64,000 nucleotides of DNA from a phage, in assembly GCA_020241125.1 (NCBI GenBank), contig GCA_020241125.1_4708.1; one strand, written 5' to 3'. The notes below the pieces were generated by a model. That model was not told where the DNA came from. It worked only from the letters and a program-made list of their open reading frames with translations, and did not search any database. The translations under genes and the position numbers were made by a program. How positions within the stretch are numbered: the first letter of the stretch is position 1; the number at the start of each line of letters is the position of its first letter. Below, piece after piece: positions 20,307 through 62,853 of the stretch.

Positions 20307-20705
20307 TTATGCTTCGCAATCAGCTGAAGGCGTCGCGCCTTTCTTACCAGCGATACGCCAAATCCGACACGCTGGGTAATGGTTAACCTCTAGAGAGCAA
20401 GGAATGTTATATTTCTCTTCCAGCGCATAAAGACATTTCGTTAGCTGCTCCAGCGCGTTCTCGTCGTGTCGTAACGCGTGGTGGCCTAATCGATGTTGGT
20501 CGTTCTTTATATACGCCTCGAAGAGAACATGTTGGCGATGTACGCTGACGTTTACAGCCTCGAGTATAGCTTGGTCGAGCATACGACTAAAGCACATCAA
20601 CGAGTCAGATACGTTTTCTCGCTTAACCAGATCGATCATGGCGGGAATATACGAATGGTCGATGTTATCGATGACCGCTTTAGCGACGGAATCAGCAACG
20701 TTCAT
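20307..20705 (-). CDS. Hypothetical small protein, paralog A of tandem pair
   Basis: 132 aa; clear similarity to adjacent 20743..21138 product (shared VKAV-DNIDH, MID, EEKYNIP-SLEVN motifs). Confidence 0.6.
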   Translation of the reverse strand: MNVADSVAKAVIDNIDHSYIPAMIDLVKRENVSDSLMCFSRMLDQAILEAVNVSVHRQHVLFEAYIKNDQHRLGHHALRHDENALEQLTKCLYALEEKYNIPCSLEVNHYPACRIWRIAGKKGATPSADCEA

Positions 20706-20742
20706 CTTTTTTAATCCCTAGTTTGTTATTGATCACGTATAT

Positions 20743-21138
20743 TTACTCTTTGACGTCAGTTGTCGTTTCGACATGCTTCTCACTACTGACGTACCAGAGC
20801 AGGTACGCTGGGAAAAGATTGACCTCTAAGCTAAATGGGATATTGTATTTCTCTTCCATTTTACAGAGATGTTCTTTAAGTAAATTTCTCGCGTCTCTGT
20901 CACCACGAACAGAGTGCCAGTCTAGTTCTTTGTTCTCCTTTACCAGGACCTCTACGATGATACGTTGCTCGTGAACCTCGGTTTTCACAGTGAAAAGTAA
21001 ATCGCTGCTATCCAAACGGGTAAAACGAATGTATGAACCAGGTGTTTTTTCTTGTTTAATAATATCGATCATGGTAGAAATGCGCGGATGATCGATGTTG
21101 TCGTTAACAGCTTTAACGATGGATTCTACAATGCTCAT
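20743..21138 (-). CDS. Hypothetical small protein, paralog B of tandem pair
   Basis: 131 aa; paralogous to 20307..20705 product. Confidence 0.6.
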   Translation of the reverse strand: MSIVESIVKAVNDNIDHPRISTMIDIIKQEKTPGSYIRFTRLDSSDLLFTVKTEVHEQRIIVEVLVKENKELDWHSVRGDRDARNLLKEHLCKMEEKYNIPFSLEVNLFPAYLLWYVSSEKHVETTTDVKE

Positions 21139-21170
21139 TTTTTATCCTTAATGTTATCGATTTGGAAATA

Positions 21171-21938
21171 TTACTTATTTTTGCTTTCTTTATAGACAGT
21201 TGTTACCCACGATGGGAAAGCCGGATGGAAACAGAGCGTGAACGTAACTGTCGTATCGTATTTAAACGCACAGTTCACTAACCGGGTATCTAACGTTTTC
21301 CTTAATCCGTCATCATCGTTATCGATGATGGTCATATCTCTTAATATCCCAAGCACGTTAACGCCATCGGGTGTCTGGGTTACGACAAGTCGTCGTAATG
21401 GCCCGCATGTATAGTCACGTACAAATCCTTTCTTCGGGTCCGATACCCTGTTTAACGCATCGTGATTTTTGATGAATTCATCGGCGATACAATAGGTTTG
21501 TTCCCTTGCTTTATCGGGATCGTATTCTGCTAATAGTTCCTTCGTGTCGAATGTTATCGCGTTATTAGCATTCGATTCAGAAGGGAAACATAAAACTAAA
21601 CGAACAGGGTATTCATATTGATCTGTTCTCGTTTCGAAAGCATTAGCTAAACACGGCTTGTATGCCTTTGCGTCGACATTGTCCAAACACGGATGCAATA
21701 ATGCGTGAATAACGGCACCATCGTCAGTTAAACCGAATTCCAGAAATTGTGTTTCATCGACATCCGTGACGGTTTTCTGAAGATACGCTTTACCGTTAAC
21801 GATATCGGTATCCCACATATCGTCGTTTAACGATTCTTCAAACTTATCGAATATATGGTTTACGAAATTGATGAGTTCATCAATACGACACTGTTGGTTG
21901 AATTCGATTAATCGTTGAACTTTATCTCTGATAGACAT
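21171..21938 (-). CDS. Hypothetical acidic protein
   Basis: 255-aa ORF, Asp/Glu-rich. Confidence 0.5.
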   Translation of the reverse strand: MSIRDKVQRLIEFNQQCRIDELINFVNHIFDKFEESLNDDMWDTDIVNGKAYLQKTVTDVDETQFLEFGLTDDGAVIHALLHPCLDNVDAKAYKPCLANAFETRTDQYEYPVRLVLCFPSESNANNAITFDTKELLAEYDPDKAREQTYCIADEFIKNHDALNRVSDPKKGFVRDYTCGPLRRLVVTQTPDGVNVLGILRDMTIIDNDDDGLRKTLDTRLVNCAFKYDTTVTFTLCFHPAFPSWVTTVYKESKNK

Positions 21939-21940
21939 GA

Positions 21941-22405
21941 TTACTCCTTAGTTCCTTCTTCGTTGGACGTATATTCCACATAGTGGAATTCACGGCCGTC
22001 GATAAACTTGAGTGCTACTGTAATAGGGAAATCACACGGCATAGCGGATTTCGTAAATGCGTTATCAGCAACATCAGATAACCGACGTATGGTATTCTCC
22101 CCTTTTGCTATGAATGGGAATTTAATGTTAATAAGGATACGGTGTTTGTAAATAGTAAAGACGACAGTGCTGTCGAAATGTACCCCAGTTAAAGTCATTG
22201 TTGGGATACGTTTTACAACGGAGAAATGTGTCCCGTCAATATCGCTACTTCCCACTGACCATTCATCGGAATTGCGTAGACTTTTCTTGAGGATATCAAC
22301 GCTTTGCGTGACCACCTCAGCAACTTGTACGACGTACGTGTCTTTATGCATGTCGAAAAGTTCGTTGACGTTAGATTTGAATGAATAAACCGTTGCCATT
22401 ATCAT
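21941..22405 (-). CDS. Hypothetical small protein
   Basis: 154-aa ORF; 4-nt overlap with upstream gene. Confidence 0.5.
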   Translation of the reverse strand: MIMATVYSFKSNVNELFDMHKDTYVVQVAEVVTQSVDILKKSLRNSDEWSVGSSDIDGTHFSVVKRIPTMTLTGVHFDSTVVFTIYKHRILINIKFPFIAKGENTIRRLSDVADNAFTKSAMPCDFPITVALKFIDGREFHYVEYTSNEEGTKE

Positions 22406-22860
22406 ACCTCTTTTTTCATCTTCATCGGAACAGCGAGTGCAGCACTCGCTGTTCCATTATCCGGCTCATATTCCAATGTAACGAGATTGCAGCCGTCCGA
22501 TAATTCATAATCGATCGCTAGGGGGAACGAGATACCGTGCGACTTTATGCATTTACCAAATGTCTCGTTGGCTGTATACATTAGAAGTTGCTTTGCGGCA
22601 AGCCCGTTTACGCTGAAAGGTAATTGTGCTGTCGCAGCGATACGATTATTGTAAACTCTGATATCGGTGATATCTACAATCGTAGCATTGCCGTGTTGTG
22701 TTGATGGAACGGATAGGTTGTAGAAGTAAGGTTCGGAGTCGGAATCGGGCTCGTTAAATAATTCCCAGCACCCGTCCTCCTGCAATCTTACTTCGAGTAT
22801 TTCAAAGCTTTTAATTATCGATTCTACCAGCTGCTCACCGTAAGAATCCCATGTCGTCAT
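22402..22860 (-). CDS. Hypothetical small protein
   Basis: 152-aa ORF. Confidence 0.5.
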   Translation of the reverse strand: MTTWDSYGEQLVESIIKSFEILEVRLQEDGCWELFNEPDSDSEPYFYNLSVPSTQHGNATIVDITDIRVYNNRIAATAQLPFSVNGLAAKQLLMYTANETFGKCIKSHGISFPLAIDYELSDGCNLVTLEYEPDNGTASAALAVPMKMKKEV

Positions 22861-22931
22861 TTTTTAACACCTTCGACACCTTTTAACCGATACGTGTCCC
22901 ATCTAACAAGGGACACGATATCGTTGATTAA

Positions 22932-23432
22932 TTACTCTTCTGTGTTTTCATTGTCAGGATCGTAGTGGAATTCGAACAGCCCTGAACCGTCGTGTCCGTT
23001 GATTGTTAGTATAACGGGCATATCGAATCCTCGGACACGCGAATGAAAACATTGTGCTAATTTTAGTTTGGCGTATGCCGCTACTTCATTGACAGCAATA
23101 CACGATTCACCTGTTATACTCAGTATAACGTCGATACTAACAATGTTGTCGTGCAACGCAAAACGCCAGCGATCGATACGATTATTATCTTTATCGGTTG
23201 TCTCGTTTACGAGATAGACTTTATCGTCAACCGACAAAGCGGGACTCCAGCAACGATCGTTTATTAAATTCGCCTGGAGTTTTAGTATCGTCTGATCGAT
23301 AATATCCCAACACGTAACCAGCGTGGTGTCAGGCACTGAGTAGAGAAGGGCGTGCACTTTATCCTTTATTTTAAGTGCTTCCGCAGGACGTCCGCAAATA
23401 CCATGCATTTCGACTTTCTTATTCATATTCAC
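22932..23432 (-). CDS. Hypothetical small protein
   Basis: 166-aa ORF. Confidence 0.5.
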   Translation of the reverse strand: MNMNKKVEMHGICGRPAEALKIKDKVHALLYSVPDTTLVTCWDIIDQTILKLQANLINDRCWSPALSVDDKVYLVNETTDKDNNRIDRWRFALHDNIVSIDVILSITGESCIAVNEVAAYAKLKLAQCFHSRVRGFDMPVILTINGHDGSGLFEFHYDPDNENTEE

Positions 23433-27354: not shown

Positions 27355-28233
27355 TTAAACCCGGGTCAGGTCACCGTGACATGAAACGAACTCTGATAAC
27401 GCTCGGGTTGCTTCTTTGGATTCTTCAGCCATCGGGAAGTTTGCGGTAATAAGTTCTCGTAAGACAGGGACGAGTTCATTATCTTCGAGATCGGAAGCTA
27501 AGGCGAATGCAATCAGTTCTTGGGTGTATGCATACGGTTGCTGACGTAATGCAGTAAGCTGATCCCGACACTGCGACATTAGCAGGTCCAGTGGAACCGC
27601 TATCGTACCCCCTTCATCAATATACTGGCTGAACACTGGTGGGAACGCATCGCTGATGACACGAATACGTCGACGAATATGATCCGGAATCTGGACGTTT
27701 TCTTCATCGACGACGTTTTCGCTATCTTTCTCCAGCTTCTTGGTCAGTACCTCTTGAATGCGTGGAAGTAAGCTTGAATGCACGAAACCGATTAATGGGG
27801 TTACGTTAACAGCATCAACGCCGTAAATATAATGCGCGCATTCCGCTAGCGCTTCAGCTGTGGTGTAGTCTTCATCTTCAACGATAGCGAGTAGAAAAGC
27901 GGTATCGTCGTGTGTTTCCAGGTCTAATAACGTAGACGCTAGCGCATGAAGATATTTCAGGCTATCCAGAGTTAGCTGCCCTTCGTTAATTCGGATCCCG
28001 AAGGCAAGCAATTGTTGTTTATAAAGTTCGATACATCCGTTTGTTAAAATGATGTCTAATTCGTTTAAATCGTATTGTTCCCCAGCACCTGACAACATCG
28101 TACTGCAGAACGTTTCCAGTTGTTCACATTTAAAATCTTGGTATAAACGATGTATGCAGTGCTGTAACAGCGTACGCCTTGTTTCAGGGATCTTACCTTC
28201 TAACAAAGCCAAGACGGAATCAATCATATCCAC
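27355..28233 (-). CDS. Hypothetical protein
   Basis: 292-aa ORF; ORF-track start is GTG, true start probably the ATG 6 nt downstream. Confidence 0.5.
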   Translation of the reverse strand: MDMIDSVLALLEGKIPETRRTLLQHCIHRLYQDFKCEQLETFCSTMLSGAGEQYDLNELDIILTNGCIELYKQQLLAFGIRINEGQLTLDSLKYLHALASTLLDLETHDDTAFLLAIVEDEDYTTAEALAECAHYIYGVDAVNVTPLIGFVHSSLLPRIQEVLTKKLEKDSENVVDEENVQIPDHIRRRIRVISDAFPPVFSQYIDEGGTIAVPLDLLMSQCRDQLTALRQQPYAYTQELIAFALASDLEDNELVPVLRELITANFPMAEESKEATRALSEFVSCHGDLTRV

Positions 28234-28323
28234 TCCGATGCGGTAAATGTCTACTAGCTCTCATAATCTATTGAAGAAACTACCAGCTTACGCCAACTTA
28301 GATTAATCAGGAGTAACCATCCC

Positions 28324-28797
28324 ATGCCAGTTTCATCCAAACCAAGAAAAAAATCCGTAGGAAACCCTAAAGCTCAGGAAACAACAGCAATTCGTTGGGA
28401 CGAGTTACGTGAACCTATCGAAAACTGCGAATTGTTATTAGGTACCCTGGGTGCAGCTATTTACCAAGCGACGCAACCCTGTCGTTTACGATTAACCCAA
28501 AACAAACGTGATGAGTTCGTTGCATTATCAACAAGCACGAATAAAGATCTGACCGAACTTCAAACCGAGTTGACGACGATCAAGAACTCCATCACGCCGA
28601 TGTACGGTAAAGAAGTTGATGAACAAAGTATTCTGTTACAGTACAACTACGGGATGTCGTTAATGAACATCCTGGAACGCGCATCCGATATTCTGCGTCC
28701 TGACGTTGCACGCCTAAGCCAGCTGCGTGTCGAAGGGATGGAGAACCAGATCCGATTCGCTAACAGTGTTAAATCTCAAGGAGCCACCGAAGCATGA
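28324..28797 (+). CDS. Hypothetical protein
   Basis: 157-aa ORF; AGGAG about 11 nt upstream; 4-nt overlap with next gene. Confidence 0.5.
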   Translation: MPVSSKPRKKSVGNPKAQETTAIRWDELREPIENCELLLGTLGAAIYQATQPCRLRLTQNKRDEFVALSTSTNKDLTELQTELTTIKNSITPMYGKEVDEQSILLQYNYGMSLMNILERASDILRPDVARLSQLRVEGMENQIRFANSVKSQGATEA

Positions 28798-30458
28798 GCG
28801 AACAAGAAAAAGAAGTCGTGACGAATCAGGAAGCCGTTGAGCGTTCAGAGTCGTCCGTTGAAACAACGATTCCGGCAAGTTCCGAGCCTGTTGGTTCCAC
28901 ACAGCAGGAAAGTAAAGACGAAGTAGTGGCTCCAGAAGCAACCCGTGAAGAAGAACCATCACATCCACCGCTGGTCGATTTCTCGAAGGCAACGATACGT
29001 TTCCAATGCGAAGACATTCGTCCTAAGAGTCCGAAGAAAACAAAACGTCAGCCGTTGGTGTTACCGCTGTATTCTCCACGTGTGCAGACAACGTATTACC
29101 GGGAATACATCAACGAAGCAATGGATACCGTGCAAGCCATTGTCGCTCAACGCGGTAAACCGACAGACGAACAATTTGATAAATTCAGTAAAGCGGTGGT
29201 GCAATCGGTTGCTGATGGACAATATCATCCGCGTGGCCCAGCTCACGATCGCGCCTTGGAACGTAAGGGCAGTCAGTGGACTAACGTACCCGTAGACTCA
29301 TCGGGTGTTGGTCGCGTTATTCCTGGCATTCCACAACCGAACCATATCCCTGATGATGTCGAAGCGCCGCTGACAGGAACCGATGCGATCTATTTTGCCA
29401 TCCGTAATACGAAATCAGGTGCGCCTGCGGTAATGCCGTTATGGCATAGCGGTATTAAGCTGCAGTTTAATCCGCCGTCAAATGAACGTGTTGCAATTAT
29501 GCACGAACGTATTGCACGCGATAAAATCCTGGGTGGACGTGATAGTACCGGTTTCCTGTTTTCAGCAACCTCGATTATCACCATGAAGCACGCTATCGAA
29601 TTAGCATTAGAATGCTGCTACATGGCCAACGTACCGAACCTGGATATCCAGCGTTTGAAAGACATTATTCCGGTTACCGATGTTCCAGCGTTATTGCTGA
29701 ACGTGCTGGTAACCATGTACCCGTACGGATATCCTTACGTACAGACCTGCTATCAGAATCCAGAAACCTGCGACTATCGTGTTGAAGATACCGTAAGCTT
29801 TGCGAAACTCTATCAAGTTGACAACAGCGCGATAACCAAACGTATGCGACAGATCATGACCGAAGGTCCGGTCATGACGGATGAACTTTTGCGTGAGTAT
29901 GCAAACGAACTGGGTGAAACAAACTCCCGTACGCTGGATCTGTCCGACAACGGTTCTGTTATCATTGAACTTGAAGTACCGAAGATTTCACGTCAGATCG
30001 CCATGGGCGAACGCTGGTTAAGCGATACCCTGGAAGATCTGCGTGATATTCTATCGCGTCCGTCAATGACCGAAGAAGAGCGTGATCGTGTTATTCGTGA
30101 ACGTCAGTTCTATAGCTGGATGCGTCAGTATGATGCGTGGATCAAATCGATGCACGTGTCAGTAAACGGTACCATGCGTCGTGTAAGCGATGCAGATACG
30201 GCAACGGTATTAGCACAGCTGTCACGAGACAGCGACCTTCGTGAACGTTATATTGACGGGTTGATGCAATTCATCGGTGATTCGACGATTGCGCTCGCAG
30301 CGATGCCTGCCTGGAAATGTCCGAAATGTAATGCCGATATTGCTGACAATCTGCGTGACCAGAAATACTACGATCTGATTGCTTTGGATGTACCCCAGCT
30401 TTTTTTTACCCTAAACTCCGTCCAATCTCTTCAGGAGGGGATGGACGCGGTATTCTAA
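28794..30458 (+). CDS. Hypothetical protein with C-terminal CxxC motif
   Basis: 554-aa ORF; acidic N-terminal tail; WKCPKCNADIADN near C-terminus. Confidence 0.55.
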   Translation: MSEQEKEVVTNQEAVERSESSVETTIPASSEPVGSTQQESKDEVVAPEATREEEPSHPPLVDFSKATIRFQCEDIRPKSPKKTKRQPLVLPLYSPRVQTTYYREYINEAMDTVQAIVAQRGKPTDEQFDKFSKAVVQSVADGQYHPRGPAHDRALERKGSQWTNVPVDSSGVGRVIPGIPQPNHIPDDVEAPLTGTDAIYFAIRNTKSGAPAVMPLWHSGIKLQFNPPSNERVAIMHERIARDKILGGRDSTGFLFSATSIITMKHAIELALECCYMANVPNLDIQRLKDIIPVTDVPALLLNVLVTMYPYGYPYVQTCYQNPETCDYRVEDTVSFAKLYQVDNSAITKRMRQIMTEGPVMTDELLREYANELGETNSRTLDLSDNGSVIIELEVPKISRQIAMGERWLSDTLEDLRDILSRPSMTEEERDRVIRERQFYSWMRQYDAWIKSMHVSVNGTMRRVSDADTATVLAQLSRDSDLRERYIDGLMQFIGDSTIALAAMPAWKCPKCNADIADNLRDQKYYDLIALDVPQLFFTLNSVQSLQEGMDAVF

Positions 30459-30520
30459 TCGATCCGCGATACGGGTTACATGACGGACAACTTGTTCGTA
30501 ATGATGAAAAAATCTGGGAA

Positions 30521-30880
30521 TTGCTATTAGCCCGTAAAGGCGACGGTGGCATGAAACTGAACATCGAAATGGGTATTGCGTACGATACCATGTTTGGCTT
30601 GTACGATCGTGTTAACGACTGGACGCCGTTGAAATGGGTTGCTCAGCATCCCGCTGAAGATCCCTGGGACAGATTGGGGATTAAACCCTTAATCGAAGAT
30701 TATGTCCGATTCGGTATTAAAGAGTTCATGACGCTGGATGCGTTTTTACAAGCACCGTATCCTTACGCGCAAACGGTACTCAAAATCGCACAAGACGAAC
30801 TGCGGAAACGTAGTGCGGTACTGGACGACGATGAGGACAAGTTACGACGAGAAGAAGAACGTTTACGAAACGGAAAATAA
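30521..30880 (+). CDS. Hypothetical small protein
   Basis: 119-aa ORF; start may be internal Met (MKLNIEMG). Confidence 0.45.
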   Translation: MLLARKGDGGMKLNIEMGIAYDTMFGLYDRVNDWTPLKWVAQHPAEDPWDRLGIKPLIEDYVRFGIKEFMTLDAFLQAPYPYAQTVLKIAQDELRKRSAVLDDDEDKLRREEERLRNGK

Positions 30881-30881
30881 A

Positions 30882-31391
30882 ATGGCGAGATTTACCAGTT
30901 TGATTGGGTTGGATATTTGGGAAACACCGGCTGACGTTCGGGTTATTCCTGTTAACACCGTCGGTGTGATGGGACGTGGTCTTGCCAAACAGGCAGCCGA
31001 TCGTGTACCCGGTCTTCTTGAAGCGTACCGTAAGCAATGTCAAGATGGGTTTAAGGTGGGCGAAGTCGTGTCGTATCAACACGGTGATAACGATCAACTC
31101 ACCTACGTGTTGTTTCCATCAAAATCGGATTGGCGTGAAAGAACACGACGCGAGTATATCGTTAACGGTTTACTGGCGTTAAAAGCATGGTTACTGGAGC
31201 TTCAGTTCGAAAGAGACGGCTTCTCATATCGGCGTCCGGCTGAACCGCTGATCGTTGCAATTCCTCCGGTTGGTTCTGGTTGCGGTAATATCGGTTACGG
31301 ACAATCCGAAACAATCCAGCCTCAGTGGGTACGCGCACAAATCAAACAGTATCTTGCCACCGTACCGAACGTTCATTTCTACTTGTTCTAA
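30882..31391 (+). CDS. Macrodomain protein (TARG1/DarG-like ADP-ribose processing fold)
   Basis: MARFTS... start immediately after stop of upstream gene; VIPVNTVGVMGRGLA, KVGEVV and IAIPPVGSGCGNIGY...W align by eye with TARG1 CISEDCRMGAGIA, KSGEVAV and MPRIGCGLDRLQW; the longer ORF-track start (30738) overlaps the upstream gene. Confidence 0.55.
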   Translation: MARFTSLIGLDIWETPADVRVIPVNTVGVMGRGLAKQAADRVPGLLEAYRKQCQDGFKVGEVVSYQHGDNDQLTYVLFPSKSDWRERTRREYIVNGLLALKAWLLELQFERDGFSYRRPAEPLIVAIPPVGSGCGNIGYGQSETIQPQWVRAQIKQYLATVPNVHFYLF

Positions 31392-31407
31392 CGCAACGGT
31401 AACATAA

Positions 31408-31439
31408 CCCTCTCCCTTCCCTGCTGGGTTGGGAGAGGG
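31408..31439. terminator. Conserved palindromic hairpin (member 8) at convergent junction
   Basis: CATAA-CCCTCTCCC-ttCCCtgctGGGtt-GGGAGAGGG-cTTATG. Confidence 0.6.
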
Positions 31440-31456
31440 CTTATGCTGTTATGCTA

Positions 31457-31831
31457 TTAATGTTCGTTCCAGATGGCATCTTCCGGTGGAACAATAGGAT
31501 CTTTCTTCGGCATTGATGGCACTTCATGGCGATGTTTACGGAACTGCCTATCAATAACCTCACGAAGCCGGTACGCATCAACCCATGTTGATTTATTGAA
31601 CAGCTCCAATGTCACAGTTAATCGTGTTCTTGACATTGAATAGCTTTTCTTTGCAATCAAATTGGGATAATTCAGTTGAGCGAACCACGCACGTATTTGT
31701 GCTTCGGTAAAAGCGATGCTGTAATAACTAAGTTTACCGTCATTAAAATCGTGCGCGTGGGTGTAACGTCCAGCGTAACGCCAGACAAGATGCACATTCA
31801 GATCGATCCATGGTGGGGTGGTATCAGCCAT
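31457..31831 (-). CDS. Hypothetical protein
   Basis: 124-aa ORF. Confidence 0.45.
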   Translation of the reverse strand: MADTTPPWIDLNVHLVWRYAGRYTHAHDFNDGKLSYYSIAFTEAQIRAWFAQLNYPNLIAKKSYSMSRTRLTVTLELFNKSTWVDAYRLREVIDRQFRKHRHEVPSMPKKDPIVPPEDAIWNEH

Positions 31832-31840
31832 GTGTTACCC

Positions 31841-32410
31841 TCAACGATTCTTCATCACTTTACCCAGGCTTTCGATATTATCCCAAAAGCGATTTTTACT
31901 TGGCGCATCGCCGACGATAACCGACATCAAATCACGACGTTCGCGACTGATGATGCCTTGTGATTTCCAGATCACCATCGTCCAGCAAGCGGCCAGAACG
32001 AACAGATGGTTAATGCTCGGTTTGGTTTGCGCGATGAACGCAAGCCATGCCCAGATACCGGTGTATACTAGCGTCACTAAAAAGAGCGAGATTGTTGCAA
32101 CGACAACAACGAAGTTTTGGACAGCGGGTTGATTAGCGTTATCATGAATAGCGGTAAGATCAGGAAGATTACCTTCAACTGAACTCGTTTCATCGATTTC
32201 CAATTCTTCGATTTCTTTTCGTGTGTCAGGAGCTAATCCAGCATCATCGAGATGCTTTTTTAACCGCTGTATGCTTAATCGTTGACCGACAGGAATGTTG
32301 ATGTTGTCGTAACTATTAAGCGCATCAACCAGGGAGCGTCCATCAACGAGAACCAAGCTCGCGGTACCCATCGTTTGCGGTTTTATTTTGTAAAGGTCTT
32401 TTACTTTCAT
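31841..32410 (-). CDS. Hypothetical protein with internal hydrophobic segments
   Basis: 189-aa ORF; hydrophobic stretch VVVATISLFLVTLVYTGIWAWLAFI. Confidence 0.5.
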   Translation of the reverse strand: MKVKDLYKIKPQTMGTASLVLVDGRSLVDALNSYDNINIPVGQRLSIQRLKKHLDDAGLAPDTRKEIEELEIDETSSVEGNLPDLTAIHDNANQPAVQNFVVVVATISLFLVTLVYTGIWAWLAFIAQTKPSINHLFVLAACWTMVIWKSQGIISRERRDLMSVIVGDAPSKNRFWDNIESLGKVMKNR

Positions 32411-35708: not shown

Positions 35709-35819
35709 AGTGTTGTCCTATACTGCGATGATTGAGATATCGGATGCCGGATGTGTGTTGCCATCAGGTGGTACGTACAGAAACACCCACAGATAAAACA
35801 GTAGCTTCTCTAACTTCAA

Positions 35820-36572
35820 TTAAATTGAAGTTAGATATTGTTTACCTCCAACAAACGACGTTAACCAATTACCTGAAACAAGTTGCGATGCCCAGCCAGG
35901 CACTGCCCTACCGTTCTGGCTCATCACGTTACCTGCCCATCCCGGAAAACCAGGTCGGAAAATATATACTTGAATATGTGTTAAAGCGTTATCATTACCA
36001 CCGCCAACAGCAACGTTACGACTCCCAGATGACGGGAAATATTCTTTTAAGAACAGAGGATCGGTTGCTAATAAAGATGCGGGCCAAGGGTTCGCGGATG
36101 CATCAACATCGAATTCGGTCCATCGCCATTTACGTCCCGTGTCGAACCATGTCGATGTACCACCACCCCTCACGGCAAGATTGCGCGCATCACGGACATT
36201 ATAAATTGATTCGATGTTACGCCATCCACCTTTTGCAGCGTTTGCTGCATAGCAAACCGCATTACCACCATTCTTCTTCTCGTAAACGGTTCGTTTGATA
36301 TGAACACGGTCGATGAACGCTTCACCGTATTTGTTGACGAGCGTTTGTGCGATATCACGAAGATCGTGCATGTGAAAAGCGATGTCTTCGTTATGGAACC
36401 ATGTTGTCTGGTTCCAGACGGTACCGTTTGGTTCGGCACACATCGATCGGATATTGTTGCGTTGATTAATCGCGATAAAACCCATTGTATACCTCGTTCC
36501 TATTCTCAAAAAGGAAATTTCATACGATGACGCCATAGCAGCTCCTCCTTCCCTTACGGGTTGGAGGAGCAT
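35820..36572 (-). CDS. Hypothetical Trp/Asn/Gly-rich protein, paralog 2 (conserved C-terminal module)
   Basis: 250 aa; shares C-terminal module and DVRDIAxxVxN-Y motif with 35067..35708 product. Confidence 0.55.
   Translation of the reverse strand: MLLQPVREGGAAMASSYEISFLRIGTRYTMGFIAINQRNNIRSMCAEPNGTVWNQTTWFHNEDIAFHMHDLRDIAQTLVNKYGEAFIDRVHIKRTVYEKKNGGNAVCYAANAAKGGWRNIESIYNVRDARNLAVRGGGTSTWFDTGRKWRWTEFDVDASANPWPASLLATDPLFLKEYFPSSGSRNVAVGGGNDNALTHIQVYIFRPGFPGWAGNVMSQNGRAVPGWASQLVSGNWLTSFVGGKQYLTSI
36541..36570 (-). terminator. Conserved palindromic hairpin (member 9)
   Basis: CATAGCA-GCTCCTCC-ttCCCttacGGGtt-GGAGGAGC-ATAC. Confidence 0.55.
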
Positions 36573-37085: not shown

Positions 37086-37133
37086 TAGATTTCCTTATGT
37101 GTTAACGGAAGTGACTTCCATAAGGATTGATGA

Positions 37134-40100
37134 TTACTTTTTGAGCGCTTTAAGTTCTTCTTCCATCGCTTCCACTTTTGCCGTAAGCTTCTGTACTTGT
37201 TTGATTAATGGAACCACCAAACGTTCGTACATAACACCTTCGGCGACGAGTCCGTTAGAAGAAACGATAGCGGGGTCATCTTCTTCGGTTGCATCACGCC
37301 AATGCACGTATTGTGGTGCGATCTCACCAACCTCTTCGGCAATCAACCCATACCAACCCCAATCCTTGTTGTCGGCTTCGCAGGTAGAACGATACCAGAC
37401 AGGACGCATCTCCAATACTTTATCCGCTTGTTCATCCGTGATATTCTCGATATCTTTCTTATAGCGCCGCGACGACGTTGAACGAAACACATTGTTGATC
37501 CCAGCAGTAGGACTGATATACATATTAGCCCCGCTGGTTGTAGTGCTAATGTCCCATACCGCAAATCCGCCGTTACTCCCATTTCTCACGACCAACGTAT
37601 TGGCAATAATATCCAGGTTATTGTTGTAACCGGTTAACTGGTTTTCGGTGACAAAATCGGATAAGTTAACGGAGTAGTTCTTGCTGTTATAACAACGACG
37701 CCATCCTGGGCTGTTGGTGCTGCCATTATAGTTGTCGTAGCTATAAATGAACTCGGAGTTGGTTTTCGCACCACTGACGGAAGACGTGGTTGCGGTGGTA
37801 ACACGGATAGTGTAGTTCGTCATCCCGAAGCTAACGACCTCGATAACCGCACCAGCCAGAGGAATAATACCACATTTGGTTTCACTGTCTGGGATGTATG
37901 CGCTATCGGCAGCAGCGAAGGAGCAACGTGCGACCCAGGCACGGGTATTGAATGCACCTTGGTTCTGTAATAACGTAATAAACGATGAGGTCGTAATCGA
38001 GCTGTTATTATCACCTGTGATCAACCAGCCGGTTGGACATGCGGTAGCACCAACGTTTTTCGCTGTTAGCGTGATGTTCTTCGATCCGTCGAAGGCTACG
38101 CCGCTGATGGTACGTGCAGTCTGTAGCTTCGTCGCCGTTGCCGCGTTCCCTGATGTGTTCTGGTTGCCTGTTGTATTCACACCCGGGATACTATCCTTAG
38201 ATGTGTAGATCTGTGCCCATTCCGACCATTTCGCATCGGTTGAATCACGACGTGAACGTAGGTAAGCTGGAGCGTGTGCACCCGAGGTACCTGACCATCC
38301 AATGAGGATTTCACCTTCGCCGACCGATGAAGCGCCTTTAAGATGAACAACGTTACCGTAGGCTGTAGGGTATCCGTTATTGTACGCTTCATACATCTGG
38401 ATACCCGTATTGCTGCCCTGGGTCGCATTAGCTAAAGCGGTAACCCGTCCCTTGGAAGCGAGCACGTTAATGCTAAAGCTAATATCGGTTGTACCGTCAA
38501 AGGCGACCCCATTAATCCTCCGCGCTGTTTGGAGTTTCGTGGCAGTAGCCGCATTACCAGAGGTACTCTGATTGCCTGCTTTGTTCACACCTGGTAAATC
38601 AATGTTGGCGGTTCCATCAAAGGACACGCCCCCTATGGTTCTCGCCGTCTGAAGTTTTGTTGCTGAACCAGCGTTTCCGGAAGTGCTTTGATTACCCGTC
38701 GCGTTGACACCTGGTAGGTTAATGCTAGCAGAACCATCAAAAGAAACTCCACCGATCGTAATAGCTGTTCGCAACTTCGTGGCTGTCGCAGCGTTACCCG
38801 TCGTATTCTGATTACCAGCTGCATTGACGCCAGGTAATGCGATATCAGCTGTGCCATCGAACGCGACACCTCCGATTTTACGGGCGGTTTGTAGCTTGGT
38901 TGCTGTAGCAGCATTACCGCTGGTATTTTGCGTACCGGCTTTATTTACACCAGGAAGATCGATGTTAGCAGAACCATCGAAGCTGACGCCACCTATCGTT
39001 CTTGCAGTAGCAAGTTTAGCGGCTGTAGCAGCGACGTTACCGACTTTTAACCATTCTCCCCATGGACCATCCACACCGTTCCATGATGCCGTTAAACTGC
39101 GCACGTATATGTTTCCTGTACGTACTGTGTAACGTTGTGTTCCACCGAATTGACCGGCTGGGAGCACTTCGATGTAACCTACAGCATTTGCTTCAGGGAA
39201 ATTGTGGGCAGCATCGGCATTCGTTGATGTTTGTTTGGACCAAATACCCACAGACGCTTCAACCGGACCGTAGGTATCCAGATTTGCATCGGTGGGGAGC
39301 TGTCCTCGAAAACGTCGGAATAATGAAGCCGATAACCCCAACGTTGTTTGCATCCCTTCAATGCTTGACTGCGATAGAAGCGCCCGAGCTGTCGACGTGA
39401 TGGCCGCTAAAGCAACCTTATCCGTACCGGTAAAAAACGGGAATTTGTTTGCTGATGTTGCTAAACCTGAAAGGGCGGTCAGTAATGCGTTAAGGGGTTG
39501 TTTCCCGGCTAGCGCGTTAGTCACAGTCGTTGCAAAGTTTGGATCATTACCTAACGCTTGAGCTAACTCGTTAAGCGTATTTAGCGCTTCTGGAGACGAG
39601 TCGATCAGCGACGCGATAGCACGCATCACAAATTCCGTGTTGGCGATCTGTTGACTGCTATCGTTCTCTGCAGCCGTAGGTGCTGCTGGGATACCGGTGA
39701 ACACAGGGTTATTAAGATCCGCCTTAAGGGCGATGAGACGTCTAAGTGCTTCAACATCGACTTTCAGGTTTTCCCATCCGACGAGATAACCATCACCGGT
39801 TGTGTGATAACGGTTGTACCAAAAATCGCCATTAACGCCAAAATAAAATATTCCCTTCTCTTCGTATTGTGGGCCAGAACTGTTCCGTGATGAGCTAATG
39901 TATTTTATTTCGATAAGGCCGTTGAATACCACTCCTGGGATAATTTTGTCGTTTCCAGACGATTGCGATACCTGGTAAGCCCCCGGTGTTGTGGCTCTAA
40001 CCCAAGTCAAGAATTCTGATGTTCCAGCGTTACCGCTAAAACGCTTGACGTCGGTAAGTATCGCACCAAAACCGAACATACCGGGTAAAGCAACTCGCCC

Positions 40101-40691
40101 ATCGGTACGGTCACGAATATCTGTTGCAACAACAGGCAACTGCTTACGAACATCATTAACTGCTTTAGGTGTCGCTGATTTTGTCTCATCGTCGCTATCG
40201 ATATCACTGCTCAGGATGGTCAGTCCTCGAGTATCTGTGGTTGCATCAGGAAGAAACGCGTTATCTAACACCTTAAGCTGTATCGCATCCGTGTTATTAA
40301 CAACAACATACACTTGACAGTTAAGAACGCTGGTTGCGCCTTCGGTAGGCACAGGCTTGTATCTTTCTGGTGCACTGCATACGGCGACCAGAACACCTTG
40401 ATTGTCATACAGACCGATCTCACGTACCCAGAACCCACCTTGACTGGCAGGAATAATACCCTCAACAATAATCCTGGTTGTGTCGTCAACATCAATACGG
40501 ATGTTGGAAACTTCCCCACGATAAACTTCGTGTACAAGTGCTGTTTGGCTAGCATCGGGGGTTGGTGTAGAACCGTTGCCATCACCAACGGCAAAATGCG
40601 TAATTCTTAGTTTCTCACCGTCAGGAAGTAATGCTGCGGTGATACGTTCAGCGCCTTTATCGGTAATGACCGTTTTATAAGTTGTACTCAT
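37134..40691 (-). CDS. Long tail fibre protein with C-terminal intramolecular chaperone (peptidase S74-like) domain
   Basis: 1185 aa; N-terminal region resembles phage tail-fibre N-termini (P2 gpH-like; LIDSSPEALNTLNELAQALGNDPNFATTVTNALAGKQP); about 6 tandem ~38-aa repeats (GGVSFDGSANIDLPGVN...ATATKLQTAR); C-terminus SSRRYKKDIENI...WYGLIAEEVGEIAPQYV...LVVPLIKQVQKL matches S74 chaperone domain pattern. Confidence 0.75.
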   Translation of the reverse strand: MSTTYKTVITDKGAERITAALLPDGEKLRITHFAVGDGNGSTPTPDASQTALVHEVYRGEVSNIRIDVDDTTRIIVEGIIPASQGGFWVREIGLYDNQGVLVAVCSAPERYKPVPTEGATSVLNCQVYVVVNNTDAIQLKVLDNAFLPDATTDTRGLTILSSDIDSDDETKSATPKAVNDVRKQLPVVATDIRDRTDGRVALPGMFGFGAILTDVKRFSGNAGTSEFLTWVRATTPGAYQVSQSSGNDKIIPGVVFNGLIEIKYISSSRNSSGPQYEEKGIFYFGVNGDFWYNRYHTTGDGYLVGWENLKVDVEALRRLIALKADLNNPVFTGIPAAPTAAENDSSQQIANTEFVMRAIASLIDSSPEALNTLNELAQALGNDPNFATTVTNALAGKQPLNALLTALSGLATSANKFPFFTGTDKVALAAITSTARALLSQSSIEGMQTTLGLSASLFRRFRGQLPTDANLDTYGPVEASVGIWSKQTSTNADAAHNFPEANAVGYIEVLPAGQFGGTQRYTVRTGNIYVRSLTASWNGVDGPWGEWLKVGNVAATAAKLATARTIGGVSFDGSANIDLPGVNKAGTQNTSGNAATATKLQTARKIGGVAFDGTADIALPGVNAAGNQNTTGNAATATKLRTAITIGGVSFDGSASINLPGVNATGNQSTSGNAGSATKLQTARTIGGVSFDGTANIDLPGVNKAGNQSTSGNAATATKLQTARRINGVAFDGTTDISFSINVLASKGRVTALANATQGSNTGIQMYEAYNNGYPTAYGNVVHLKGASSVGEGEILIGWSGTSGAHAPAYLRSRRDSTDAKWSEWAQIYTSKDSIPGVNTTGNQNTSGNAATATKLQTARTISGVAFDGSKNITLTAKNVGATACPTGWLITGDNNSSITTSSFITLLQNQGAFNTRAWVARCSFAAADSAYIPDSETKCGIIPLAGAVIEVVSFGMTNYTIRVTTATTSSVSGAKTNSEFIYSYDNYNGSTNSPGWRRCYNSKNYSVNLSDFVTENQLTGYNNNLDIIANTLVVRNGSNGGFAVWDISTTTSGANMYISPTAGINNVFRSTSSRRYKKDIENITDEQADKVLEMRPVWYRSTCEADNKDWGWYGLIAEEVGEIAPQYVHWRDATEEDDPAIVSSNGLVAEGVMYERLVVPLIKQVQKLTAKVEAMEEELKALKK
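38080..39060 (-). repeat. Intragenic tandem coding repeats (~114 bp units) within the tail fibre gene
   Basis: Repeated peptide unit visible in translation; DNA units diverged but periodic. Confidence 0.6.
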
Positions 40692-40697
40692 GGCGTT

Positions 40698-41225
40698 TTA
40701 TCCCGGGTAAATAGTGATGACATCACCGATGACAGTTGCCGCACCGGCGCAAAGATACGCTGGTGATGTATCACGCTGGTTTGTCACGATAAGATCCAAT
40801 TGCCCACGCCAAACCATGGAGGTATTCGCGATGGGAATCGAGATCTTCTTGGAAGTATCGTCACGAAAATTAATGGCGGTAGCAAGGGTAGCTGAATCAA
40901 AATCAACGTCGGGTTCAAAGTTGAAACCGTATTGATCCGAAATAGCTTGAATAACCGCTCTTATGGTTGTTGTTTCAACCGACTCCAAAACGATTTTTAT
41001 CGGTATTCCTAGAAATGCTTTCGCTATATCACGCCGTGTGTAAGTGATAAAACTTTCACCACACCACCTTGTTCCTTCATTTGCTGTGACGATCACTTTT
41101 GCCCTGTTAACACCAGAACTCCCATCCAGGGTTAAAGTGAGATCGGAGTTGCTGAATACACTACTGTTACGTTGGTTTATCAACGTAATAAGTTCGTCTT
41201 TCCATGGTGGGTAAAGTGAACGCAT
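40698..41225 (-). CDS. Short protein carrying only the shared receptor-binding-protein N-terminal anchor domain
   Basis: Start set at ATG 41225 (MRSLYPPWKDE) preceded by GGAGGAGGG; ORF-track start at 41408 would run through the upstream hairpin; product shares RRDIAKAFLGIPIKI...YGFNFEPDVDF with other RBP N-termini. Confidence 0.5.
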   Translation of the reverse strand: MRSLYPPWKDELITLINQRNSSVFSNSDLTLTLDGSSGVNRAKVIVTANEGTRWCGESFITYTRRDIAKAFLGIPIKIVLESVETTTIRAVIQAISDQYGFNFEPDVDFDSATLATAINFRDDTSKKISIPIANTSMVWRGQLDLIVTNQRDTSPAYLCAGAATVIGDVITIYPG

Positions 41226-41338
41226 AAGCGCACCCTCCTCCAACAATCGAATTAATATGCAAAAACGCCTCGAAACAGGAGTGCGATTCGAGGCTAACGT
41301 AAACAGTCTTAACGACCGCATAAAATTCCGCGCATATT

Positions 41339-41371
41339 GCCCCTCTATCCCGACAAAGCGAGATAGAGGGG
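41339..41371 (-). terminator. Palindromic hairpin (member 10)
   Basis: CATATTG-CCCCTCTATC-ccgacaaagcga-GATAGAGGGG. Confidence 0.5.
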
Positions 41372-41383
41372 AGGATAATACGA

Positions 41384-60162: not shown

Positions 60163-62853
<2,691 letters not shown>

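What the first reader, a model, noticed from the sequence alone, without database searches (positions are those of the whole stretch)
30882..31391. Phage-encoded TARG1/DarG-like macrodomain at the end of a plus-strand operon
The 169-aa product aligns by eye with the TARG1-type macrodomain (VNTVGVMGRGLA versus CISEDCRMGAGIA; IPPVGSGCGNIGY...W versus MPRIGCGLDRLQW). This is the fold of the DarG antitoxin that removes ADP-ribose from DNA. A phage copy is a plausible counter-defence enzyme against ADP-ribosylating host systems such as DarT-like toxins. The co-transcribed 157-, 554- and 119-aa proteins upstream are uncharacterised and may act with it.
Basis: partly seen in the sequence, partly recalled or inferred. 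Interest (0 to 1): 0.6.

Follow-up and report, generated by a model that had tools for sequence, protein, structure and literature searches.

The report
Jumbo-phage AdfM anti-DarT macrodomain (known)
The gene is real and encodes a stand-alone DarG-type macrodomain, but it is the near-identical ortholog of Goslar gp83, a member of the published AdfM family that nucleus-forming jumbo phages use to strip DarT2-added ADP-ribose from their DNA, so it is correct but not new.

Summary
The ORF at 30882-31391 (+) exists and encodes 169 aa. It is a macrodomain: it passes the Pfam Macro gathering score, and its only PADLOC and NCBIfam hits are DarG. The AlphaFold2 model (pLDDT 86.6) matches DarG macrodomain structures best (5m31, 5m3e, 5m3i, 7omu), with TARG1 next. 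The DarG catalytic Asn and Lys (N25, K81) and both glycine-rich loops are conserved. The protein has no DarT-binding C-terminal domain and no darT neighbour.

The window is a Goslar-like E. coli jumbo phage (a chimallivirus). The protein is 164/169 identical to Goslar gp83, which RefSeq already annotates as a macro domain protein. Morgan et al. 2026 (Cell Rep, PMC13309987) list gp83 as a homolog of AdfM. They showed experimentally that PhiKZ AdfM (gp104) is imported into the phage nucleus, removes DarT2 ADP-ribose from DNA and protects against DarTG2.

The suggestion that the upstream 157-, 554- and 119-aa proteins act with the macrodomain is not supported. They belong to a chimallivirus block next to a virion RNA polymerase gene. 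In PhiKZ and PhiPA3 their homologs lie 35-42 kb from AdfM.

Small addition: homology supports the 169-aa start, not the 186-aa RefSeq start of gp83.

The parts
30882..31391 (+). adfM-like gene: stand-alone DarG-type macrodomain, 169 aa plus stop. Ortholog of Goslar gp83 and homolog of PhiKZ gp104.
   Evidence: ORF and translation. Pfam Macro. PADLOC DarG 4.1e-22. 164/169 identical to Goslar gp83. 32% identical to PhiKZ gp104, E 7e-21. AlphaFold2 pLDDT 86.6, with DarG as top Foldseek hit.
30951..30986 (+). First ADP-ribose-binding loop, VNTVGVMGRGLA (residues 24-35). It includes N25 (codon 30954-30956), the equivalent of T. aquaticus DarG N22 and PhiKZ AdfM N23.
   Evidence: N25, G28, M30, G31, G33, L34 and A35 are invariant in alignment A1. 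Aligned to DarG and PhiKZ. The N23A mutant of PhiKZ AdfM has reduced activity (PMC13309987).
31113..31136 (+). FPSKSDWR motif (residues 78-85). It contains the catalytic-type lysine K81 (codon 31122-31124), the equivalent of T. aquaticus DarG K80, PhiKZ K78 and the TARG1 lysine.
   Evidence: K81 and W84 are invariant in A1. Alignments. [quoted passage not shown] 1 legend.
31263..31298 (+). Second glycine-rich loop, PPVGSGCGNIGY (residues 128-139).
   Evidence: P128, G131, G133 and G135 are invariant in A1. Aligned to DarG PPLGAGNGGL and TARG1 MPRIGCGLDRLQW.
31393..31454 (.). Strong hairpin between the convergent genes (core stem 31408-31416 / 31431-31439). Probably a bidirectional transcript end.
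   Evidence: RNA fold dG -35.3 kcal/mol, z -6.87, 0 of 200 shuffles as stable. Goslar annotates a putative terminator here. No T-tract terminator was found by the simple scan.
30551..30880 (+). Upstream gene, homolog of Goslar gp082 (109 aa from the ATG; 119 aa if the TTG at 30521 is used). It stops 1 nt before the macrodomain start. It is a neighbour, not a demonstrated partner.
   Evidence: ORF. PHROG 12109. Homolog PhiPA3 gp073 lies 42 kb from PhiPA3 AdfM gp108. Adjacency is conserved in the distant Goslar-like contig L007.
28794..30458 (+). 554-aa gene, homolog of PhiKZ gp077. Widespread chimallivirus gene of unknown function, not linked to AdfM outside the Goslar lineage.
   Evidence: PHROG 4585, 6e-67. 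tblastn to PhiKZ gp077 at 71.9-73.3 kb on the minus strand, against gp104 at 107.5 kb.
28324..28797 (+). 157-aa gene, first of the co-directional block. It overlaps the next gene by 4 nt and is the positional counterpart of PhiKZ gp078.
   Evidence: ORF. No family hits. The position relative to the gp077 and gp080 homologs matches PhiKZ.
28250..28272 (+). Conserved 23-nt element, TCTACTAGCTCTCATAATCTATT, in the divergent intergenic region upstream of the block. Candidate phage promoter or regulatory site.
   Evidence: 22/23 nt identical in L007, where the flanking proteins are only about 45% identical. Unique in the window.

Best explanation
The gene encodes an AdfM-family enzyme: a stand-alone, DarG2-like macrodomain ADP-ribosylglycohydrolase of a nucleus-forming E. 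coli jumbo phage related to Goslar.

Inferred mechanism:
1. When the host carries a DarTG2 toxin-antitoxin defence, infection frees DarT2, which ADP-ribosylates thymidines in single-stranded phage DNA.
2. The phage protein binds the ADP-ribose through its two glycine-rich loops and cleaves the thymidine-ADP-ribose bond using the DarG-type Asn25/Lys81 site. This restores DNA that can be replicated and packaged.
3. It acts purely as an enzyme. It has no DarT-binding domain.
4. By analogy with PhiKZ, PhiPA3 and Asesino AdfM, it is probably imported into the phage nucleus by the PicA pathway.

Shown here: the gene, its fold, family placement, conserved catalytic residues, orthology to Goslar gp83 and homology to PhiKZ gp104. 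Inferred from the literature on the family: enzymatic activity, DarTG2 protection and nuclear localisation for this particular protein.
For: **Family.** Pfam Macro is above the gathering score. The only PADLOC hit is DarG (4.1e-22, profile positions 8-143 of 329). The only NCBIfam hit is antitoxin_DarG.

**PDB comparisons.**
- phmmer: T. aquaticus DarG macrodomain 5.4e-15, M. tuberculosis DarG 3.9e-11.
- Profile: DarG 6e-42, TARG1 4e-14, Poa1p 6e-5.

**Structure.** AlphaFold2 pLDDT 86.6, pTM 0.85. Foldseek ranks 1-4 are DarG structures (E 1e-14 to 9e-12; TM normalised to target 0.86-0.87 for the three macrodomain-only chains). Ranks 5-11 are TARG1.

**Catalytic residues.** N25 and K81 are invariant among homologs. 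They align with T. aquaticus N22/K80 and PhiKZ N23/K78.

**Genome.** The window is collinear with Goslar at about 91-96% nucleotide identity in most blocks. The protein is 164/169 identical to gp83.

**Literature.**
- PMC13309987 lists Goslar gp83 among the AdfM homologs. It shows that PhiKZ AdfM de-ADP-ribosylates DarT2-modified DNA (N23A reduced), neutralises DarT2 toxicity and is needed for growth on DarTG2 hosts. PhiKZ, PhiPA3 and Asesino AdfM all localise to the nucleus.
- Goslar has the PicA importer, gp174 (PMC11087766).
- An E. coli K-12 host expressing DarTG2 restricts coliphage T5 and T4 lacking its macrodomain gene (bioRxiv 10.1101/2025.11.20.689424).
Against: - No experiment exists for Goslar gp83 or this protein. 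In the AdfM paper it appears only in an alignment.
- It is only 32% identical to the tested PhiKZ protein.
- It has two lineage-specific, low-confidence segments: residues about 108-122 (pLDDT about 52) and about 131-146, which includes part of the second Gly-rich loop (pLDDT about 59).
- TARG1-type macrodomains can also remove protein-linked ADP-ribose, so DNA specificity is inferred rather than shown.
- Nuclear import is known to be phage-specific, so it cannot be transferred by homology (PMC11087766).
Confidence: 0.85

Rival explanations
1. The macrodomain reverses ADP-ribosylation of protein or RNA rather than DNA. Candidate substrates are host or phage proteins modified by ADP-ribosyltransferases, or mRNA modified by CmdT-like toxins. 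TARG1 acts on Glu/Asp-linked protein ADP-ribose in this way.
For: TARG1 is the second-best structural and profile match. The catalytic lysine is shared with TARG1. Some phage homologs carry annotations such as 'protein-ADP-ribosylation protein'.
Against: All sequence and structure comparisons put DarG far ahead of TARG1 (6e-42 against 4e-14; 29% against 18-20% identity). The DarG-type Asn is present where TARG1 has Ser. The tested family member, PhiKZ AdfM, acts on DarT2-modified DNA, and its loss gives a DarTG2-specific phenotype. No ADP-ribosyltransferase gene lies next to it.
Confidence: 0.07
2. It is a metabolic 'phosphatase' or deacetylase: a Poa1p-like ADP-ribose-1''-phosphate phosphatase or an O-acetyl-ADP-ribose deacetylase. 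This is what the inherited labels suggest (PHROG 335 'phosphatase', CDD Macro_Poa1p_like, 'Appr-1-p processing').
For: PHROG 335 is labelled 'phosphatase'. The Goslar note cites cd02901 Macro_Poa1p_like. Poa1p structures are found at Foldseek E about 5e-8. Metagenome homologs are named O-acetyl-ADP-ribose deacetylase.
Against: Poa1p is a much weaker match than DarG (6e-5 against 6e-42). The labels are generic names inherited for the macro superfamily, not tested functions. The tested family member has a defence-specific DNA de-ADP-ribosylation role.
Confidence: 0.04
3. It works as part of a multi-protein module with the co-directional upstream 157-, 554- and 119-aa proteins.
For: The four genes are co-directional and tightly spaced: a 4-nt overlap and a 1-nt gap. 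The same order, ending in the macrodomain gene, is kept in a distant Goslar-like contig where the macrodomain is only 47% identical.
Against: The 554-aa homolog PhiKZ gp077 is 35 kb from gp104 and on the other strand. The 119-aa homolog PhiPA3 gp073 is 42 kb from AdfM gp108. The block is syntenic with the virion RNA polymerase gene (the gp080 homolog), not with AdfM. The distributions across phages differ: the 554-aa family includes Ralstonia, Vibrio and Xanthomonas phages and only 2 Escherichia records, while macrodomain hits include 45 Escherichia records such as phiEco32-like podophages. PhiKZ AdfM alone is sufficient to neutralise DarT2 in E. coli.
Confidence: 0.04

Closest known systems
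AdfM (anti-DarT factor macro) of chimalliviruses: PhiKZ gp104, PhiPA3 gp108, Asesino gp217, Goslar gp83 (Morgan et al. 2026, Cell Rep, PMC13309987)
   Same: A stand-alone macrodomain of about 160-170 aa encoded by a nucleus-forming jumbo phage. It is 97% identical to Goslar gp83 and 32% identical to PhiKZ gp104 over the full length. The N-terminus matches (MARF / MAEF), as do the catalytic Asn and Lys and the Gly-rich loops.
   Different: The source is a different Goslar-like isolate with 5 amino-acid substitutions relative to gp83. Compared with PhiKZ AdfM, the Goslar lineage has an insertion of about 13 residues after the long helix and a longer loop after the second Gly-rich motif. The gene sits at the end of a block adjacent to the virion RNA polymerase gene, rather than in the PhiKZ gp103-gp105 neighbourhood. 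Activity and localisation are untested for the Goslar lineage.
DarG antitoxin of DarTG2 toxin-antitoxin systems (T. aquaticus and M. tuberculosis DarG; PDB 5m31, 5m3e, 5m3i, 7omu)
   Same: Best sequence and structure match, about 26-29% identity. Same macro fold, with catalytic N22/K80 equivalents and ADP-ribose-binding loops.
   Different: It has no C-terminal DarT-binding domain: only profile positions 8-143 of 329 are matched, and the NCBIfam score is 81 against a cut-off of 250. There is no adjacent darT. It is phage-encoded and used against the host system rather than as its antitoxin.
Human TARG1 / C6orf130 (PDB 4j5q, 4j5r, 4j5s)
   Same: Same macrodomain subclade. The lysine-containing TK motif and the GCG loop are shared. 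Foldseek E about 3e-10, TM normalised to target about 0.8.
   Different: Only 17-20% identity. It is not detected by single-sequence phmmer. TARG1 has Ser where DarG and AdfM have the Asn. TARG1 is mainly a protein Glu/Asp-ADP-ribose hydrolase.
T4 Tk.4, also named AdfM (HIDEN-SEQ preprint, bioRxiv 10.1101/2025.11.20.689424)
   Same: A stand-alone phage macrodomain that protects an E. coli phage from DarTG2.
   Different: Only 25% identity over 114 residues (pairwise E 2e-5). It lacks the FP(T/S)K..W lysine motif. It is a separate macrodomain lineage in a phage that does not form a nucleus.
AdfN (T4 30.3, NADAR-domain orphan antitoxin against DarTG1; PMC11825919)
   Same: The same strategy: a phage carries an orphan antitoxin-like ADP-ribosylglycohydrolase to erase DarT marks from its DNA.
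   Different: Unrelated fold (NADAR). It acts on guanine-linked ADP-ribose from DarT1, not thymidine-linked ADP-ribose from DarT2.

Membership tests
Macrodomain superfamily (Pfam PF01661) | Score at or above the Pfam gathering threshold | tested here: met
   25.9 bits against a cut-off of 22; residues 23-141 match profile positions 3-113 of 118.
Macrodomain superfamily (Pfam PF01661) | Macro fold with mixed beta-sheet and flanking helices | tested here: met
   AlphaFold2 pLDDT 86.6, pTM 0.85. 210 PDB hits at E <= 0.001; those listed are macrodomains or proteins designed on a macrodomain scaffold.
DarG/TARG1-type macrodomain clade | Closest relatives by sequence and structure are DarG and TARG1 | tested here: met
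   Foldseek ranks 1-11 are DarG, then TARG1. Profile: DarG 6e-42, TARG1 4e-14, the next family 5e-8.
DarG/TARG1-type macrodomain clade | Catalytic lysine (T. aquaticus DarG K80 / TARG1 lysine) in the (F/I)(P/T)(T/S)K motif | tested here: met
   K81 in FPSKSDWR is invariant in 13 homologs and aligned to the DarG and TARG1 lysine.
DarG/TARG1-type macrodomain clade | DarG active-site asparagine (T. aquaticus N22) and two glycine-rich ADP-ribose-binding loops | tested here: met
   N25, G28, G31, G33, P128, G131, G133 and G135 are invariant and aligned to DarG.
DarG/TARG1-type macrodomain clade | Hydrolysis of thymidine-linked ADP-ribose on ssDNA | not testable with these tools
   Shown only for PhiKZ AdfM and bacterial DarG in the literature.
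DarG antitoxin of DarTG2 (NCBIfam NF048014, PADLOC DarG) | Full-length architecture with a C-terminal DarT-binding domain; score at or above the curated cut-off | tested here: not met
   The protein is 169 aa. It matches only profile positions 8-143 of 329 and 7-146 of 338, with 81.1 bits against a cut-off of 250.
DarG antitoxin of DarTG2 (NCBIfam NF048014, PADLOC DarG) | Encoded next to a darT toxin gene | tested here: not met
   The neighbours are chimallivirus genes with no DarT-family hit. Goslar annotates no darT in the surrounding 16 kb.
AdfM (chimallivirus anti-DarT factor macro) | Encoded by a chimallivirus (nucleus-forming jumbo phage) | tested here: met
   The window is collinear with Goslar 62281-125430 at about 91-96% identity in most blocks. 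Goslar is a nucleus-forming phage with PicA gp174.
AdfM (chimallivirus anti-DarT factor macro) | Stand-alone DarG2-like macrodomain homologous to PhiKZ gp104 and orthologous to a listed member | tested here: met
   164/169 identical to Goslar gp83, which is listed in Fig. 1B of PMC13309987. PhiKZ gp104 hits only this ORF in the window, E 7e-21.
AdfM (chimallivirus anti-DarT factor macro) | Protects the phage from DarTG2 and is imported into the phage nucleus | not testable with these tools
   Shown for PhiKZ and PhiPA3 (protection) and for PhiKZ, PhiPA3 and Asesino (localisation), but not for Goslar gp83.
T4 Tk.4-type AdfM | Close sequence relationship to T4 Tk.4 | tested here: not met
   25% identity over 114 aa, pairwise E 2e-5. 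Tk.4 lacks the FPxK..W motif and gives no significant tblastn hit on the window.
Poa1p-like ADP-ribose-1''-phosphate phosphatase | Closest relationship to Poa1p rather than to other macrodomain clades | tested here: not met
   Poa1p scores 6e-5 by profile and Foldseek E about 5e-8, far behind DarG and TARG1.

The most novel reading that the evidence does not exclude
The Goslar-lineage AdfM may differ in function from the PhiKZ prototype. Three features set it apart:
- It has two lineage-specific surface segments (residues about 108-122 and 136-146).
- It sits at the end of a block adjacent to the virion RNA polymerase gene.
- It is placed so as to be translationally coupled to a conserved 109-119-aa protein.

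This could reflect a different import signal or expression programme, or packaging or partnering that protects the genome before the nucleus is built. It could also reflect a broadened substrate range. Nothing here tests any of this.
Probability: 0.07. Interest if true: 0.45.

Novelty: already known. Interest (0 to 1): 0.12.

Why it matters
The biology is of real interest. It shows that the protein shell of the phage nucleus does not fully exclude a DNA-modifying host toxin, and that jumbo phages add an imported eraser enzyme as a second layer of counter-defence. That point was made and tested in 2026 for this protein family, and the Goslar ortholog is named there.

What this window adds is minor:
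- Another Goslar-like isolate carries an intact gene with all catalytic residues.
- The 169-aa start is better supported than the 186-aa RefSeq start of gp83.
- In the Goslar lineage the gene has a fixed position at the end of a conserved block, unlike in PhiKZ-like phages.

It would be a convenient E. coli model for testing AdfM against E. coli DarTG2.

Tried and rejected
1. **Functional linkage with the upstream 157-, 554- and 119-aa genes.** Rejected. The homologs are 35-42 kb from AdfM in PhiKZ and PhiPA3, and their distributions across phages differ.
2. **Full DarG antitoxin membership.** Rejected. There is no C-terminal domain, the score is below the NCBIfam cut-off, and there is no darT.
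3. **Close kinship with T4 Tk.4.** Rejected.
4. **Sigma-70 promoter and T-tract terminator scan of 28000-31900.** Uninformative: 2 promoter-like sites against 6 expected and 0 terminators. These phages use their own RNA polymerases.
5. **The conserved 23-nt intergenic motif as a repeated promoter consensus.** It occurs only once in the window.
6. **Pfam, NCBIfam and PHROG searches of the neighbouring genes.** These gave no functional assignments beyond 'unknown function' families.
7. **A second macrodomain in the window.** None was found.

Full report
**Observation.** The ORF is real. ATG 30882 to TAA 31391 on the + strand encodes 169 aa (MARFTSLIGLDIWETPADVRVIPVNTVGVMGRGLAKQ...). It begins one nucleotide after the stop codon of the preceding gene (30878-30880). 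It is the last of four co-directional genes: 28324-28797, 28794-30458, 30521/30551-30880 and 30882-31391. Downstream, between it and a convergent gene that ends at 31457, lies a very stable hairpin (31393-31454; dG -35.3 kcal/mol, z = -6.9, 0 of 200 shuffles as stable). The simple scan found no T-tract terminator.

**What the protein is.**
- Pfam Macro (PF01661) scores 25.9 bits against a gathering score of 22.
- The only PADLOC hit is DarG (4.1e-22), but it covers only profile positions 8-143 of 329.
- The only NCBIfam hit is the antitoxin_DarG equivalog, at 81 bits against a cut-off of 250. Again only the N-terminal macrodomain part matches.
- phmmer against PDB sequences finds the T. aquaticus DarG macrodomain (5m31/5m3e, 5.4e-15), the M. 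tuberculosis DarG macrodomain (5m3i, 3.9e-11) and the Thermosipho DarTG fusion (7omu, 1e-4).
- A profile of 13 homologs (alignment A1) gives DarG 6e-42, 9e-42 and 3e-35, TARG1 about 5e-14 and Poa1p 6e-5.
- An AlphaFold2 model from A1 is confident (mean pLDDT 86.6, pTM 0.85). Foldseek against the PDB ranks the four DarG structures first (E 1.4e-14 to 8.8e-12). For the three macrodomain-only chains the target-normalised TM is 0.86-0.87 and rmsd is 1.8-2.3 A. TARG1 entries follow (E about 3e-10).

The protein is nonetheless closer to DarG. It keeps the DarG asparagine in VN25TVG, where TARG1 has Ser. It also keeps the lysine in FPSK81SDWR. These correspond to T. aquaticus DarG N22/K80 and PhiKZ N23/K78. 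Those are the residues named as the active site in PMC13309987.

**Whose gene it is.** The 4.5 kb around the gene is 97.0% identical to Escherichia phage vB_EcoM_Goslar. The whole window is collinear with Goslar 62281-125430, at 91-96% identity in most blocks. The protein is 164/169 identical to the C-terminal 169 residues of Goslar gp083 (YP_009820768.1). RefSeq already annotates gp083 as 'macro domain-containing protein, weakly similar to phiKZ ORF104'. PhiKZ gp104 matches this ORF, and no other place in the window, at 32% identity and E 7e-21.

**What is already published.** Morgan et al. [quoted passage not shown] Their findings:
- PhiKZ gp104 is a DarG2-like macrodomain.
- It removes DarT2-added ADP-ribose from a DNA oligonucleotide, and the N23A mutant is impaired.
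- It neutralises DarT2 toxicity in E. coli.
- It is required for PhiKZ and PhiPA3 to grow on DarTG2-carrying hosts.
- PhiKZ, PhiPA3 and Asesino AdfM all concentrate in the phage nucleus.
- Goslar gp83 is one of the sequences in their Figure 1B alignment.

Related work fills in the picture:
- PhiKZ gp104 was earlier used as a cargo of the PicA import pathway, and Goslar encodes PicA as gp174 (PMC11087766).
- Independently, T4 Tk.4, a different macrodomain, was shown to protect T4 from DarTG2 expressed in E. coli K-12 and was also called AdfM (bioRxiv 10.1101/2025.11.20.689424).
- The NADAR-type orphan antitoxin AdfN does the same job against DarTG1 (PMC11825919).

For the Goslar lineage itself, activity and localisation remain inferred.

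**Mechanism, with its basis.**
- Shown here: a stand-alone macrodomain with intact DarG-type active-site residues and ADP-ribose-binding loops, no DarT-binding domain and no darT neighbour.
- Inferred from the tested PhiKZ and PhiPA3 orthologs and from DarG biochemistry: it hydrolyses thymidine-linked ADP-ribose placed on single-stranded phage DNA by DarT2, and so keeps the genome fit for replication and packaging.
- Inferred by analogy only: PicA-dependent import into the Goslar-type nucleus. Import signals are phage-specific.

**The neighbours.**
- The 554-aa protein is a homolog of PhiKZ gp077 (24.5% identity over 485 aa, E 3e-33). gp077 lies at 71.9-73.5 kb on the opposite strand, 35 kb from gp104 at 107.5 kb.
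- The 433-aa gene on the other side of the divergent intergenic region is the homolog of PhiKZ gp080, a virion RNA polymerase beta-type subunit.
- The layout is therefore [RNAP subunit - 292 aa] <-> [157 aa - 554 aa], which mirrors PhiKZ gp080-gp079 <-> gp078-gp077.
- The 119-aa protein has a homolog in PhiPA3, gp073 at 61.5 kb. That is 42 kb from PhiPA3 AdfM, gp108 at 104.2 kb.
- The distributions across phages differ. The 554-aa family is found in Ralstonia, Vibrio, Xanthomonas and Serratia jumbo phages and in only two Escherichia records. DarG-like macrodomain hits include 45 Escherichia records, such as phiEco32-like podophages.
- Within the Goslar lineage the arrangement is stable. A metagenomic contig, L007, whose macrodomain is only 47% identical, has the same six-gene order ending in the macrodomain.

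The upstream genes are best read as a conserved chimallivirus block onto whose end the Goslar lineage has placed adfM, not as a functional module. PhiKZ AdfM alone suffices to neutralise DarT2.

**Start codon.** RefSeq starts Goslar gp83 17 codons upstream, at the equivalent of window 30831. That gives 186 aa and overlaps gp082 by 50 nt.
- The 169-aa form begins MARF, matching PhiKZ MAEF and the MANF of more distant homologs.
- Independent gene calls for homologs are 168-169 aa.
- In L007 an in-frame TAG lies three codons upstream of the ATG, which excludes an extension there.

**Differences from the prototype.** Relative to DarG and PhiKZ AdfM, the Goslar lineage carries an insertion of about 13 residues after the long helix (about 108-122; block pLDDT about 52, below 50 at residues 115-118). 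It also has a longer loop after the second Gly-rich motif (about 136-146); the 131-140 block has pLDDT about 59. Their significance is unknown. They are surface candidates for phage-specific import recognition, but this is speculation.

**Verdict.** Interest is low.

Noticed in passing
window 17400-19151 (+); junction at 18895-18915; Goslar NC_048170 81186-82966 (L004 21187-22967): The DNA polymerase gene is one uninterrupted 583-aa ORF here. In Goslar it is cut short at 499 aa by a 1.78-kb insertion. That insertion carries the NUMOD1/HNH homing endonuclease gp069 and a group I intron-like RNA (Rfam RF00028, 44.7 bits, E 1.5e-9, below the gathering score of 50). This phage therefore has the intron-less allele.
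   Followed up: partly
window 28250-28272 (+): A 23-nt element, TCTACTAGCTCTCATAATCTATT, lies in the divergent intergenic region between the gene beside the RNA polymerase gene and the 157-aa gene. It is 22/23 identical in a distant Goslar-like contig (L007) whose flanking proteins are only about 45% identical. It is unique in the window. It is a candidate phage promoter or regulatory site.
   Followed up: partly
window 41384-43153 (-), and 40698-41408 (-): A 589-aa ORF with DUF7941 and DUF285 repeats sits in a roughly 1.75-kb segment absent from Goslar (junction at Goslar 103564/103565). The adjacent 236-aa ORF also has DUF7941. This is probably an extra tail-fibre or receptor-binding module.
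   Followed up: partly
window 37122-39421 (within ORF 37134-40691, -): The long tail-fibre gene (Goslar gp090 homolog, P1 gpS-like) is much more divergent from Goslar than the rest of the window: 65-87% identity, with internally repeated matches. This suggests a different host range.
   Followed up: no
window 20315-22954 (-): About 2.6 kb holding five small ORFs (132, 131, 255, 154 and 152 aa, no Pfam hits) replaces about 0.55 kb of Goslar (84419-84974). Only 456 bp is shared, at 77% identity. This is a variable accessory-gene spot.
   Followed up: partly
window 35760-36482; window 60486: The window has about 0.7 kb extra at 35760-36482, which includes a 130-bp, 81%-identical copy of Goslar 97104-97234 and a 250-aa ORF with no Pfam hit. 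Goslar gp120 (121394-122106) is missing from the window at position 60486.
   Followed up: no
protein P0001: A 99%-identical copy of the macrodomain ORF, called as 217 aa from the upstream ATG, is deposited as a hypothetical protein of Salmonella enterica serovar Muenchen on an 809-bp contig. A 98%-identical 169-aa cluster has 232 member sequences in Logan assemblies. Goslar-like phage DNA is therefore common in public sequencing runs and is sometimes filed as bacterial.
   Followed up: no
phage database hits H137-H149: DarG-like stand-alone macrodomains at 28-31% identity also occur in phiEco32-like E. coli and Shigella podophages and in SPN3US-like Salmonella jumbo phages. They are mostly labelled 'Appr-1-p processing' or 'phosphatase'. 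These may be untested anti-DarT2 factors in phages that do not form a nucleus.
   Followed up: no
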